This document shows positions 4,495-61,902 of a stretch of 64,000 nt of DNA, piece after piece. This DNA is from Eledone cirrhosa. Its lineage: Eukaryota. How positions within the stretch are numbered: the first letter of the stretch is position 1; each line of letters opens with the position of its first letter. The notes under the pieces were generated by a model that saw nothing but the letters and a program-made list of their open reading frames with translations, was not told where the DNA came from and did no database searches. The DNA lies in contig OZ024753.1 in NCBI GenBank assembly GCA_964016885.1, forward strand, positions 3,720,001 through 3,784,000, written 5' to 3'. The position numbers were made by a program, and so were the translations under genes.

Positions 4495-4823
4495 CATAGG
4501 TGCCCGAGTGATGTCGGAGGAAGGAGTAACCACAGTCAAATGTAATATTCAATATATTGGCATTTATTATATGTATAAATGCTTTAACGCATAGAGTTAC
4601 GGCCCTTGCCATTCTGAGTTCAAATCCTGCCGAGGTTAACTTTGCCTTTCATCCTTACGGGGTTGATAAAATAAAGTACCAGTAATACACTGCGTAATTT
4701 GCTGGCCTGGTGCCAAAATTAGAAACAATTATATGTATAAATGACTTGTACAAAAGTAGAACTGTTTCTTTCGTAAGAAATCATCATAGGAAAGAAACAG
4801 TTCTAGTCTCCGAGAAGTCATTT

Positions 4824-4867
<44 letters not shown>

Positions 4868-4978
4868 AAATGACTTCTCGGAGACTAGAATTGTTTCATT
4901 CCTATGGTGATTTCTTACGAAAGAAACAGTTCTACTTTTGTACAAGTTATTTATACATATAATTGTTTCTAATTTTGG
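4495..4978 (-). mobile_element. Family A fold-back element (diverged relative of family B) with degenerate hammerhead
   Basis: Tail ggagtaaccacagt...tcaata matches the family B tail. Inverted arms ~4713-4827 and ~4864-4978 flank (TA)n. Contains TTTC-TTAC-GAAA-GAAACAG...TTGTA, with the CUGAUGA core altered. Confidence 0.7.
4582..4727 (+). mobile_element. 5'-truncated tRNA-SINE with target-site duplication
   Basis: B box gttcaaatcc and the family body are present; direct repeat attatatgtataaatg at 4566-4581 and 4728-4743. Confidence 0.9.
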
Positions 4979-9077: not shown

Positions 9078-9276
9078 GTTATTCCGGGTTGAATCGGAGG
9101 TAACCACAGTAAGTAAGGTACTCAATACATTACAGAGTATACAAGTTTTAATATAGATAAGATTCTACAGGACCAGAACTGTTTCATTCTTTAGAAATCA
9201 TCAGGAATGAGATTCCTGATGATTTCTAAAGAATGAAACAGTTCTAGTCTTGTAGAATCTCATCTATATTAAAACT
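9077..9276 (-). mobile_element. Family B (TA)n-inserted fold-back element (Penelope-like/retrozyme-like)
   Basis: Unique tail 9077-9143, then a ~65 bp inverted repeat (9144-9208/9212-9276). (TA)n on both sides. Near-identical copy at 39649-39866. Confidence 0.85.
9207..9263 (+). ncRNA. Type I hammerhead ribozyme motif (family B)
   Basis: ATGAGATTC-CTGATGA-T TTC TAAA GAA T-GAA-ACAG ttctagtc TTGT-A-GAATCTCAT: stem I, core, stem II, stem III and a GUA cleavage triplet. Confidence 0.8.
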
Positions 9277-30586: not shown

Positions 30587-30604
30587 ATATATATATTTAT
30601 ATAT

Positions 30605-31057
30605 GGAAAGTTATATTTAAATTGTTGGGTTACAACTAGTAAATATTTATAACTGATATAAAAGCACTCGACAAATATTTGGAGTATATTTACAATATTA
30701 AATAAATGGAAACTATATTTATAAAACCATATTTATTTCATTATATATATTTCAGGGATATCATATTAACAATATGCTATGCCTTCCTCAGACAAAATAC
30801 AATATAAACAGTTTTATAGATAAATAGATTCGACATACCGTAACAACATCTACTTGCATTTGAGAAGGTTGATTTGGTAGTCAAATGCAAGTAGATGTTG
30901 TTACGGTATGTCGAATCTATTTATCTATAAAACTGTTTATATTGTATTTTGTCTGAGGAAGGCATAGCATATTGTTAATATGATATCCCTGAAATATATA
31001 TAATGAAATAAATATGGTTTTATAAATATAGTTTCCATTTATTTAATATTGTAAATA
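30605..31057 (-). mobile_element. Family E fold-back element with hammerhead-like core
   Basis: ~175 bp inverted arms; CTGAGGA (30953-30959), stem II, GAAA (30991-30994); unique tail 30605-30686. Confidence 0.85.
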
Positions 31058-31621
31058 TTTATATATATATATATATTTATAAATATATTTATATATATTT
31101 ATATACGTTCCTTTAATGAATATATATATATATGCATGTGTGTGTGTTTGTGTGCGTTTTCATGTATGTATATAAACGCACACGGCCACAGATAGACGCA
31201 CGCACATACACACATATATGCATATATAAATTTCCAGTATATTTTTAATTTTTCATTTGGGAATCTATTTATTCATTAGTGATTTAATTTCTCATGCATC
31301 TGTGTCTCTGTGTGTTTGTGTCCGTGCGTTTGTACATGTGGTGTGTAGGGTGGGTGTATATGTGTGTATGGGGTGGGTGTATATGTGTGTGTGGGGTGAG
31401 TGTATATGTGTGCATTTGCTTGTATGCCTCTACACTTAAGAAAATATATCATGAGTGGAAATGCTCATATATTCCACTTTAACGCTGTTTATTTTCTGAG
31501 TGAGAGACGAAATGTAAACAAAGATATTTTGCACAAACGTATATTATTGATAGTCTGAAATAGAGAGGCACACATACGAACGCACACACACACACACACA
31601 CACACTATATATATATATCTG

Positions 31622-34247: not shown

Positions 34248-34683
34248 CGATATTGACAAATGGAAACTATATTTATAAAACCATATGTATTTCATTATAC
34301 ATATTTCAAGGACACCAAGTTAAATTATGGTGTGCTTTCATCAGATAAAATATAATATATAGCAGTTTTATAAATAAATATTGACATACCCTTAAAGAAT
34401 GCAACCATTACTGTTGGAAGCTTCCAACAGTAATGGTTGCATTCTTTAGGGGTATGTCAAAATTTATTTATAAAACTGCTATATATTATATTTTATCTCA
34501 TGAAAGCATACCATAATTTAACTTGGTGTCCTTGAAATATTTATAATGAAATAAATATGGTTTTATAAATATAGTTTCCATTTGTCAATATCGTATTTTT
34601 ACTCCAATTACTTGTTGAGTGCTTTATATCAGTTATAAAAATATTTGCTTGTTGTATCCCAACAATTTAAATAGAACTTTTGC
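34248..34683 (+). mobile_element. Family E fold-back element
   Basis: Palindrome centred at 34420/34421 (ggaag|cttcc). Intact CTGATGA on the minus arm (34338-34344); mutated CTCATGA on the plus arm (34497-34503). Confidence 0.85.
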
Positions 34684-39608: not shown

Positions 39609-39648
<40 letters not shown>

Positions 39649-39651
<3 letters not shown>

Positions 39652-39862
39652 ATTCCGGGTTGAGTCGGAGGTAACCACAGTAAGTAAGGTACTCAATACA
39701 TTGCAGAGTATAAAAGTTTTAATATAGATGAGATTCTACAGGACTAGAACTGTTTCATTCTTTAGAAATCACCAGGAATCTCTCTTTAGAAATCATCAGA
39801 GATTCCTGATGATTTCTAAAGAATGAAACAGTTCTAGTCCTGTAGAATCTCATCTATATTAA

Positions 39863-39866
<4 letters not shown>
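39649..39866 (-). mobile_element. Family B fold-back element
   Basis: Near-identical to 9077-9276, with an extra internal duplication at the turn. Confidence 0.88.
39799..39851 (+). ncRNA. Type I hammerhead ribozyme motif (family B)
   Basis: GAGATTC-CTGATGA-TTTCTAAAGAAT-GAA-ACAG ttctagtc CTGT-A-GAATCTC, with stems I and III fully paired. Confidence 0.85.
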
Positions 39867-39900
<34 letters not shown>

Positions 39901-40294
39901 TATATATAAAATATAATAAAATACTATAGTTTGTTTGAAGCATGGTATATGATATATAACGTTGAAAGAGATAGAAGGCTAAATAATGCAAAATGGACTG
40001 TAACATGAGGTAACGAAAAGTAAAAGTTACCATATATATATATTTATTCCTTTATTTATTAGAGAGAGTCAGGGCCAGACGGCGGAGCTCTTGCCGTTTC
40101 GACAGGTAATTTCAGACACCTGCATTGTACGTACACACACACGCGCATATGAGACGGATTGTGAGAAATTCTCAGATGGGACACAACCTAACAAATTTCA
40201 CAGTTAACCGACCTAGTGTCTTCTCATTGTAGACACACACACACACACACACACACATATAAATATATATATGAGTGCGTGTGTGTAAAATAAT

Positions 40295-45368: not shown

Positions 45369-45372
45369 TTAT

Positions 45373-45550
45373 ATTAGAGAAGGAGCTTCTACAGGACTAG
45401 TACTGTTTCATTCAGATGAAATCTTCAGGAAGCTCATGAGCTTCCTGAATGAGACAGTACTAGTCCTGTAGAAGCTCCTTCTATAAAATAAATTTTTTTT
45501 ACTCTGCCATGTATTGAGTACCTTACTTACTGTGGTTATCCGGGACCTAC

Positions 45551-50766: not shown

Positions 50767-51513
50767 CATATATATGTATGTATATATATATATTATACAT
50801 GTGACTTGGTGAACATTTTTGTTTACAACCGAGAAATTAGTACTCAGTATATAAGTTGATTGTATATATATCTGAAGATTGTGAAAGATTTTTAAGTCGC
50901 AATCCTTTGAACAATAGCAAGAGGAATCATAAAATGATATTCAACGATCTGATTCAAGAAGGTTCGACTTGTAATACTGTATATATCTATATGTGTATGT
51001 GTGTTAGTGTATGTCAGTGTATATGTTAGTGTATATGTTAGTGTATATGTTAGTGTATATGTTAGTGTATATGTTAGTGTATATGTTAATGTGTATGAGA
51101 TTGAATGTTGAATATATATTGATAAATAACATAATATCCATAATATAATATACTAAAAATATTCAAGCATTAATTGAATGAGGACTCAATACGGGTGGGC
51201 AGAGTGGGAAAACATATTCTCTGGGTATAAAATTGGCTGTGATTTCGAAGTTTATGTTTGGTCACTCCATCAAAGGTGTATACGCAAGGGTATCTCTCTG
51301 AGGTTTATATGGACATCTGAATGCGGAATGTGTCTTTCAGTGAGTGTTTGTATATTTACAGATGGGTTTGGTTTGTTTTCTTTGGAATATCTATCAGTAC
51401 ACTAATATATTATTTGTGTATATTATGGCATGTGTTCTCTCAAACAGTACATTTCTATATGTAGAATAATGTGTGTGATTTGTTGTGTGCGTGTGCATAT
51501 ATATGTATATGTA

Positions 51514-51602
51514 GAATCTCATCTATATTAAAACTGTTATACTCTGCTATGTATTGAGTACCTTACTTACTGTGGTTACCTCCGATTCAACCCGGAATAA
51601 CG
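51514..51602 (+). mobile_element. Family B copy starting at the predicted ribozyme cleavage site
   Basis: Begins GAATCTCATC directly after the tatgta microsatellite; full tail to cccggaataacg. Confidence 0.85.
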
Positions 51603-51707
51603 TACATATATATATATATATATGTATGTATGTATGTATACATATATACATGTATATATATATATAGGAAAATATTATATATTTGTATGTGTGAGTGCAG
51701 GATATCC

Positions 51708-52328: not shown

Positions 52329-52469
52329 ATTCCGGGTTGAAGAGACCTATAAATACCATATTCCGGGTTGAAGAGACCTATAAATACCATATTTATTTTT
52401 TGATACCCAGATTCCTGATGATTTCTAATGAATGAAACAGTTCTAGTCCTGTAGAATCTCATCTATATC
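52326..52469. mobile_element. Rearranged family B copy with intact hammerhead (52409-52460, +)
   Basis: AGATTC-CTGATGA-TTTC TAAT GAAT-GAA-ACAG ttctagtc CTGT-A-GAATCT. Confidence 0.8.
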
Positions 52470-61590: not shown

Positions 61591-61902
61591 TGTGTGTAAT
61601 TCCGCCGGAAAGGTACAGGAAAAAAGAGTGCTCTATGTAGGCTACAGAGCTTATTAGTTATGTAATAATAAACAAGATAATTATTTCATTTACCAGTGGT
61701 TTCTTGAAAGCAGATATATCTGTTTTCAGTCGTCAGAATGAATATAAAACATGCTGTTTTTTATTAAATATGGATTTGAAAACAAAAATATTTAAGAAAT
61801 ATGAAATTGAGGCTGAGAAACAAACGGACGAAAAAGAAGGATAGAAAAAAAATCTATAAAATTATAAATAAATATATATATATATATACATATATACATA
61901 TA

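What the first reader, a model, noticed from the sequence alone, without database searches (positions are those of the whole stretch)
39799..39851. Family B: complete type I hammerhead with covariation across four copies
Copies at 9207, 39799, 45383 (minus) and 52409 keep the core, stem III (ACAG/CTGT, TTGT at 9207) and a GUA triplet. Stem I switches GAGATTC/GAATCTC to GAGCTTC/GAAGCTC (compensatory), N7 varies (CTGATGA/CTGAAGA), and the stem II loop varies (TAAA, TAAT, ATCT; TTAC in family A). Changes fall where hammerheads tolerate them. The U.U pair at the base of stem II is atypical and recurs in family D.
Basis: partly seen in the sequence, partly recalled or inferred. Interest (0 to 1): 0.88.

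Follow-up and report, generated by a model that had tools for sequence, protein, structure and literature searches.

The report
Hydra-clade retrotransposon hammerhead stubs
This is a hammerhead-shaped RNA motif, predicted to cut itself, from the terminal repeat of a very abundant Penelope-like jumping gene; the copy here is half of a short head-to-head stub that likely formed when the copying enzyme ran off the start of the RNA, so it is a new example of a known kind.

Summary
The motif is real, but it is not a stand-alone ribozyme. It is the terminal-repeat (pLTR) hammerhead of a young Hydra-clade Penelope-like retrotransposon. The core pattern has 26,985 matches genome-wide (control 0). A full copy reads hammerhead, 713-aa RT/GIY-YIG ORF, 3' UTR, hammerhead (5,072-nt unit).

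The four window copies give only one compensatory change. A 28-sequence alignment shows two covarying pairs, both in stem I, whose native length is 6 bp, not 7. Core and stems vary 2-3% per site against 38% in loop II. The U·U pair occurs in 14 of 25 published Hydra families.

The copy at 39799 is one arm of a long-plus-short inverted stub in (TA)n, and its antisense arm would mask it.

New here: 19 of 48 long arms end in the 8 bases before the core, 1 at the cut site. A TATA box lies 30 nt upstream and an initiator sits on stem I's first base. The stubs are probably run-off copies of uncut RNA. Cleavage and the start site are untested. The scan reported this element type before, in this and other genomes.

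The parts
39800..39850 (+). Type I hammerhead motif with native 6-bp stem I, U10.1·U11.1, 3-bp stem II, 4-bp stem III, palindromic loop III; cut predicted after 39844
39800..39866 (+). Short arm of the insertion: hammerhead plus about 16 nt, ending at the short 3' end next to (TA)n
39649..39781 (-). Long arm: hammerhead (core A6G) plus about 82-nt tail ending at the long 3' end
39782..39799 (.). Junction filler: one base plus a 17-nt templated reverse-complement copy of core and stem II; supplies the G at 39799
   Evidence: (sequence)
39621..39648 (.). (TA)n target, left flank
39866..39908 (.). (TA)n target, right flank
9078..9276 (.). Second inverted stub: long arm on - (9208-9078), short arm on + (9210-9276)
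45369..45550 (.). Third inverted stub, subfamily with AGCTTC/GAAGCT: short arm on - (45434-45369), core-deleted long arm on + (45439-45550)
52368..52468 (+). Copy that keeps native upstream: TATA box at 52379, predicted initiator and stem I at 52409; no antisense hammerhead arm
51510..51607 (+). Long-arm copy of the same family truncated near the predicted cut site

Best explanation
The motif is the hammerhead in the terminal repeat (pLTR) of a young Hydra-clade Penelope-like retrotransposon, predicted to self-cleave weakly or as a dimer, and the copy at 39799 is one arm of a truncated head-to-head insertion in (TA)n that likely arose by reverse-transcriptase run-off from uncut RNA. Shown: the motif sits about 180 nt upstream of a 713-aa RT/GIY-YIG ORF and again after the 3' UTR; insertions end at two fixed 3' points; paired arms are nearly always one long and one short; 5' ends pile up at stem I. 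Inferred: the pLTR is an RNA polymerase II promoter (CCAAT -84, CACCC -73/-57, TATA -30, initiator on the first base of stem I), so the hammerhead would be the first 51 nt of the mRNA. The element's protein would nick both target strands and prime at two internal sites about 66 and 133 nt from the 5' end. Both cDNAs would run off that end and be joined with short templated filler. Copies with native upstream would come from priming in the 3' pLTR. Odds by step: identity as the element's hammerhead 0.95; able to cleave in some context 0.75; run-off from the transcription start 0.6.
For: Full element L097: cores at 2541 and 7613, ATG at 2716, unit 5,072 nt. The window's loop type (TAAA) also lies directly before a 94.7%-identical ORF in L281. 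ORF motifs RWR38, DKT116, YRDD347, CxCx5C566, IVY/YIG, CxxC666, CxH694 match the Hydra diagnosis. ORF piece: 1,655 candidates, best 40 at 99%. Selection: in 58 of 93 tail-anchored long arms that span the motif, core 2.8%, stem II 2.3%, stem III 2.3%, U10.1 0%, U11.1 1.7%, loop III 3.9% variation, against loop II 37.5% and the next 6 tail bases 30%. Stem I pairs 1 and 3 change on both sides; 0 of 500 shuffles reach the score. 5' ends: 19 of 48 long arms at -7..0 from C3, 2 at -8..-90, 1 at the cut site; 80 of 145 arms at -7..0 in a larger set, 2 of them misread native copies. TATA-to-stem spacing 29-31 nt in 88 of the first 100 of 5,612 matches, with diverged spacers. Long+short pairs: 13 of 14, 18 of 18, 37 of 39. 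PAc extends both strands, primes at two internal sites and uses mainly uncut RNA (PMC11167929). Loop III duplex -12.8 and -15.2 kcal/mol against -1.4 for the hairpin.
Against: No cleavage or RNA data were obtained. The hammerhead fold is 0.3-6 kcal/mol above the minimum-energy fold for the isolated motif, and stem I probability falls to 0 in longer native transcripts. No loop 1/loop 2 tertiary contact is possible if the RNA starts at stem I. The TATA and initiator reading rests on consensus only (own knowledge); D. virilis Penelope has a TATA-less internal promoter (PMC2377424). The extra G expected from copying a cap is weak: 5 of 9 unambiguous arms, and a one-base fold-back gives the same G. 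A6G core variants number 1,109 against 26,985 intact, so an intact core is not universal. Rows in the alignments are related, so the shuffle control is not a probability. Loop II differed between paired arms in 14 of 64 pairs, not resolved as mutation or separate templates.
Confidence: 0.7

Rival explanations
1. Same element, but the stubs arise by reverse-transcriptase stalling at the hammerhead followed by fold-back self-priming, possibly on an antisense template, as proposed for rotifer Penelope inversions; the stem I boundary would then mark structure, not the RNA start.
For: Head-to-head inversions with junction palindromes were read as self-priming in PMC3846280. Junctions often overlap through short palindromes and carry templated filler. 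Paired arms share loop II in 50 of 64 pairs.
Against: The boundary is one-sided at the far (5') end of the structure, with few ends beyond it; a stall should pile up where RT enters the structure, near +45. The edge coincides with a TATA at -30 and an initiator. Both 3' ends also terminate long copies with ORFs. Joins made by stem I annealing are rare: 1 of 48 (L148).
Confidence: 0.2
2. The motif is kept as a fold or protein-binding site for the element's RT and cleaves negligibly in vivo.
For: Insert ends avoid the cut site. PAc hammerhead mutants still insert and no reads end at its cut site (PMC11167929). Weak predicted stability. Loop III is as conserved as the core.
Against: All core positions are retained across subfamilies while N7 and loop II vary, the pattern of catalytic constraint. 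A U·U hammerhead from axolotl cleaves 22% in 1 h as a monomer and much better as a dimer (PMC7229834).
Confidence: 0.2
3. The short copies are an independent non-autonomous retrozyme or SINE that replicates through self-cleaved circular monomers.
For: Short copies far outnumber ORF-bearing ones. Head-to-tail arrays with a hammerhead in each unit exist: about 1.08-kb units on C1 and 78-bp units on C28.
Against: The arms are 93-98% identical to the pLTR of the ORF-bearing element. They have no cut-to-cut monomer, lack a promoter and are inverted, not tandem. The 78-bp array mutates core and loop alike (2.5% against 1.7%), as DNA-level satellite growth would.
Confidence: 0.07

Closest known systems
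Hydra clade of C-terminal-endonuclease Penelope-like elements (Craig et al. 2021, PMC8557442), including Hydra-1_Obim of Octopus bimaculoides
   Same: RWK-like, DKT, CxCx5C, CxxC and CxH motifs; GIY-YIG at the C terminus; (TA)n target; pLTR with canonical hammerhead; inverted 5'-truncated partner and optional tail; U·U at the base of stem II in 14 of 25 listed families; ACAG/CTGT stem III with GUA in three listed families.
   Different: A different family from Hydra-1_Obim, whose listed hammerhead has a 7-bp stem II and another stem III (proteins compared by eye only). Unit 5.07 kb with a 2.8-kb microsatellite-rich 3' UTR, against 'generally <3 kb'. Tail about 65-67 nt against 30-40. Loop III 8 nt against 1-3 nt. 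About 27,000 core matches.
Poseidon PAc of Anolis carolinensis (Frangieh et al. 2024, PMC11167929)
   Same: Hammerhead near the ORF start; two internal RT start sites that define the tail; both target strands cut and extended; uncut RNA is the main template.
   Different: Different clade; its hammerhead overlaps the ORF and needs protein to cleave; here it lies 5' of the ORF and the two ends lie in the 5' UTR. A pile-up of 5' ends at stem I is not described in the parts read.
Axolotl retrozyme hammerhead HHR_Amex2 (Cervera and de la Pena 2020, PMC7229834)
   Same: Type I motif with U·U at the base of stem II; tens of thousands of copies; better cleavage as a dimer.
   Different: Sits in 350-bp tandem non-coding retrozymes expressed as circles; the motif here belongs to an autonomous element and its inverted stubs.
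Minimal hammerheads of metazoan Penelope-like elements (Cervera and de la Pena 2014, PMC4209133)
   Same: pLTR location, mostly solitary truncated copies, opposite-strand pairs, palindromic loop III.
   Different: Those lack helix III and keep G10.1-C11.1 with a long helix II; this one has a 4-bp helix III, a 3-bp helix II and U·U.

Membership tests
Type I hammerhead ribozyme | Core CUGANGA, GAAA, UH in type I order | tested here: met
Type I hammerhead ribozyme | Three helices supported by covariation | tested here: inconclusive
   Stem I pairs 1 and 3 covary; stems II and III pair but show no change on both sides
Type I hammerhead ribozyme | R10.1-Y11.1 pair | tested here: not met
   U·U in 57-58 of 58 arms; a known tolerated variant
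Type I hammerhead ribozyme | Rfam gathering score | tested here: not met
   Hammerhead_3 13.1 bits against 48.5
Type I hammerhead ribozyme | Site-specific self-cleavage | not testable with these tools
   needs in vitro assay
Hydra-clade Penelope-like element | Single ORF, RT with C-terminal GIY-YIG | tested here: met
   713-aa ORF; YRDD, IVY/YIG; Pfam GIY-YIG only below cutoff, E 0.012
Hydra-clade Penelope-like element | RWK and DKT motifs; CxCx5C linker instead of CX2-5CxxC; CxxC and CxH around E and N | tested here: met
   RWR38 (R for K), DKT116, C566, C666, C694; no CX2-5CxxC
Hydra-clade Penelope-like element | pLTR partial tandem, inverted truncated partner, optional tail | tested here: met
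Hydra-clade Penelope-like element | (TA)n insertion target | tested here: met
Hydra-clade Penelope-like element | Placement in the Hydra clade on an RT tree | not tested
   labelled reference proteins were not held as stored sequences; motif match only
Non-LTR retrozyme | Non-coding 170-400-nt head-to-tail units, each with a hammerhead | tested here: not met
   window copies are inverted pLTR stubs of a coding element
Non-LTR retrozyme | Abundant circular RNA | not testable with these tools
   no RNA run was available

The most novel reading that the evidence does not exclude
The hammerhead is the first 51 nt of a capped Hydra-element mRNA and works as a decapping switch: uncut RNA is the template that a dimeric RT copies from two staggered internal sites on both target strands, running off the cap to make tens of thousands of mini inverted stubs, while cut RNA loses its cap and is diverted to cap-independent translation or decay. 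The stubs would then be a genomic fossil record of the start site and of the two-strand priming order.
Probability: 0.3. Interest if true: 0.62.

Novelty: new member of a known kind. Interest (0 to 1): 0.3.

Why it matters
Hammerheads in Hydra-clade elements, including the U·U variant, are already tabulated, so the motif itself adds one family. The useful part is mechanistic. What Penelope hammerheads do, and how inverted pLTRs and tails form, is still open (PMC8557442, PMC11167929). This young family has intact ORFs and tens of thousands of insertions with fixed 3' ends, a strict long+short pairing and a sharp 5' edge on a predicted start site. That makes both questions testable by 5' RACE and an in vitro insertion assay.

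Tried and rejected
Rfam over the window returned only microsatellite-driven miRNA noise among the 150 of 746 rows shown. General repeat finding was swamped by (TA)n. No RNA holder was listed; the runs laid were contigs of unknown kind and say nothing on expression. The idea that the AGCTTC subfamily belongs to the divergent ORF in L063 (44% identity in the endonuclease region) was rejected: 11 of 11 other copies of that ORF continue into a different 3' UTR; that subfamily's own ORF was not found (1 match, no lead). Cleavage as the cause of 5' truncation was rejected: 1 of 48 ends at the cut site. A 7-bp native stem I was rejected. The 36 of 41 G at -7 in L001-L030 was set aside because those loci were chosen by a query holding that G. 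General A-to-I editing as the cause of A6G is not supported: no A>G excess at other sites, and 8 of 10 partner arms keep A. Three rows (L287, L313, L314: truncated or another family) were left out of alignment A1. No window ORF matches the element (tblastn). Literature searches: hammerhead ribozyme + octopus, 5 papers, only Craig et al. relevant; hammerhead + satellite DNA + cephalopod, 0; Penelope-like + twin priming + inverted, 2, neither relevant by title and abstract start; Penelope promoter terms; PMC13282606 main text has no 'hammerhead' or 'ribozyme'. bioRxiv supplements and most subscription papers were not visible and may bear on novelty.

Full report
Observation. A 26-letter core pattern matches 26,985 times in the 3.0-Gb genome and its reversed control 0 times. 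Rfam scores it far below threshold (13.1 against 48.5 bits), and ViennaRNA prefers folds that keep stem I only, so the case rests on comparison, not on energy.

Anatomy in the window. The copy at 39800-39866 is the short arm of an inverted pair. A long arm runs 39781-39649 on the minus strand, 18 bases of filler join the two 5' ends, and (TA)n flanks both sides. The copies at 9.2 and 45.4 kb are built the same way. The copy at 52409 keeps native upstream sequence. The 30 best genomic matches to the whole insert have the same build. A transcript through both arms would form one long hairpin (-122 kcal/mol).

Host element. Copies that extend further 5' lead into a microsatellite-rich 3' UTR and a GIY-YIG-type ORF. 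That ORF piece has 1,655 candidates, the best 40 at 99%. L097 is a full partial tandem: hammerhead core 2541, ATG 2716, 713-aa ORF, 2.8-kb UTR, core 7613. The window's TAAA loop type precedes a 94.7%-identical ORF in L281. The protein has RWR, DKT, YRDD, CxCx5C, IVY/YIG, CxxC and CxH and no CX2-5CxxC, the diagnosis of the Hydra clade in PMC8557442 section 11. It has 1,400 relatives at E<=1e-20 among 8,000 scored; the 120 listed are 39-53% identical and unnamed. No tree was built. Earlier scan notes call the genome octopus-like; I did not test that.

Covariation and selection. Native copies read CCC|AGATTC, so stem I is 6 bp and the G at 39799 comes from the junction. In 28 distinct 51-mers (27 native copies plus the four window copies, three rows left out), stem I pair 1 is AU in 17 and GC in 7, pair 3 is CG in 12 and AU in 9, pair 6 takes UG in 4; stems II and III show no double change; 0 of 500 shuffles reach the score, but the rows are related. 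In a sample anchored on the tail and not on the motif, 58 of 93 long arms span it: core 2.8%, stem II 2.3%, stem III 2.3%, loop III 3.9%, N7 13.8%, loop II 37.5%, next tail bases 30% (arms needed at most 14 mismatches). A minor family in the same genome keeps U·U with CC/GG in stem II. So the structure is under selection in the master lineages; single stubs then decay.

The U·U pair. File S2 of PMC8557442 lists it in 14 of 25 Hydra families, by my count. PMC3088659 section 8 reports natural U10.1-U11.1 and says it is the best tolerated mispair. Axolotl HHR_Amex2 has it and cleaves 22% in an hour as a monomer, much more as a dimer (PMC7229834 section 15). Here loop III has a palindromic centre; the self-duplex is -12.8 kcal/mol, and -15.2 in the 45.4-kb subfamily, against -1.4 for the hairpin, so dimer cleavage is plausible (inference).

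How the stubs form. Of 48 long arms of the main group, 19 end at -7..0 from C3, 13 further 3', 2 at -8..-90 and 14 beyond; only 1 ends at the cut site. The per-base rate in the hotspot is about 18 and 45 times that on either side. In a larger set 80 of 145 arms end at -7..0, of which 2 are misread native copies, and 4 end between -8 and -60. The native upstream has CCAAT at -84, CACCC at -73 and -57, TATAAA at -30 and CCAGATT over the first base of stem I, which fits TATA spacing and the initiator consensus YYANWYY (own knowledge). Spacing is 29-31 nt in 88 of the first 100 of 5,612 matches although spacers diverge; many of these are copies of few subfamilies. Pairs are long+short in 13 of 14, 18 of 18 and 37 of 39 cases (the last set is anchored on a long arm). 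PMC11167929 (parts 1-2 of 4) shows a Poseidon protein extending both strands from two internal sites on mainly uncut RNA. Together these suggest priming at two sites near the 5' end and run-off at +1. The cap-G sign is weak (5 of 9). Rivals are fold-back self-priming (PMC3846280 passages) and a non-cleaving structural role. A rotifer pLTR has a putative TATA and initiator; D. virilis Penelope is TATA-less (PMC2377424 passages).

What cleavage would do. At the 5' copy it would remove a capped 45-nt leader; at the 3' copy it would remove the priming sites; both cuts would give a 5.07-kb monomer that could circularise, as proposed in PMC4209133 (parts 1-2 of 4). Self-cleavage can drive cap-independent translation in viral leaders (PMC13725137 abstract and passages). 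None of this is shown here.

Novelty. The kind is known: Hydra elements with hammerheads, inverted partners and (TA)n targets, including one from O. bimaculoides with a different hammerhead. bioRxiv 10.64898/2026.07.22.740005 (part 1 of 5) links retrozymes to pLTRs. The scan has reported such stubs several times in this and other genomes; my reading was noted before those look-ups. A start-site explanation of the 5' edge was not found in the scan's notes or in searches. Verdict: real, a new member of a known kind, interest 0.3.

Noticed in passing
G000:C28 from about 30,496,800 to at least 30,803,000 (L331-L336); not at 30,900,000 (L337): A satellite of 78-bp head-to-tail units, each essentially one hammerhead of this family: at least 306 kb, about 3,900 or more units if continuous; 1,590 exact junction matches, all on one strand. 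It starts beside an inverted long arm in (TA)n. Core intact in 111 of 147 units; core and loop II mutate alike. A 7-unit array of the same unit lies at C1:350.2 Mb (L329).
   Followed up: partly
G000:C1:83,679,800-83,691,700 (L224, L225): Twelve head-to-tail units of about 1.08 kb, each with 3' UTR end, promoter motifs, hammerhead, long tail and (TA)n; retrozyme-like arrangement.
   Followed up: partly
window 39775 (-) and genome-wide: Core change A6G recurs across subfamilies: 1,109 matches against 26,985 intact, while any change at the first stem II base gives at most 396. It is site-specific and mostly in one arm only. Unexplained: a mutation hotspot, or enrichment of uncleavable templates.
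   Followed up: partly
window 4720-4975: 'Family A': two related, divergent copies (loop TTAC, core starting ATGATGA, A at 11.1) arranged around a (TA)n centre and inserted in a common short repeat; about 80% similar to this family.
   Followed up: no
window 30600-31060: Head-to-head inverted pair of another hammerhead type with long stem II and a palindromic TA-rich stem III (cores 30791 -, 30953 +); a similar core at 34344 (-) and another at 61736 (-).
   Followed up: no
L104, L128, L129, L314: A further family with CTGA(T/A)GA, U·U, CC/GG stem II and a long insert after GAAAC, also in inverted pairs.
   Followed up: no
L063:746-3178 (-); L317-L327: A second, older Hydra-like ORF family (about 42% identical; 3,277 candidates) with a long 3' UTR and no hammerhead found within about 1.5 kb of the ORF end; at L063 it is fused once to the AGCTTC-subfamily pLTR.
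   Followed up: partly
L097:2581-2716: The frame is open from the TAG at the predicted cut site into the ORF (45 codons before the ATG) in L070 and L081; may be chance.
   Followed up: no
L007, about 1745-1785: A canonical-looking hammerhead core with G10.1 lies right beside an insertion of this family.
   Followed up: no
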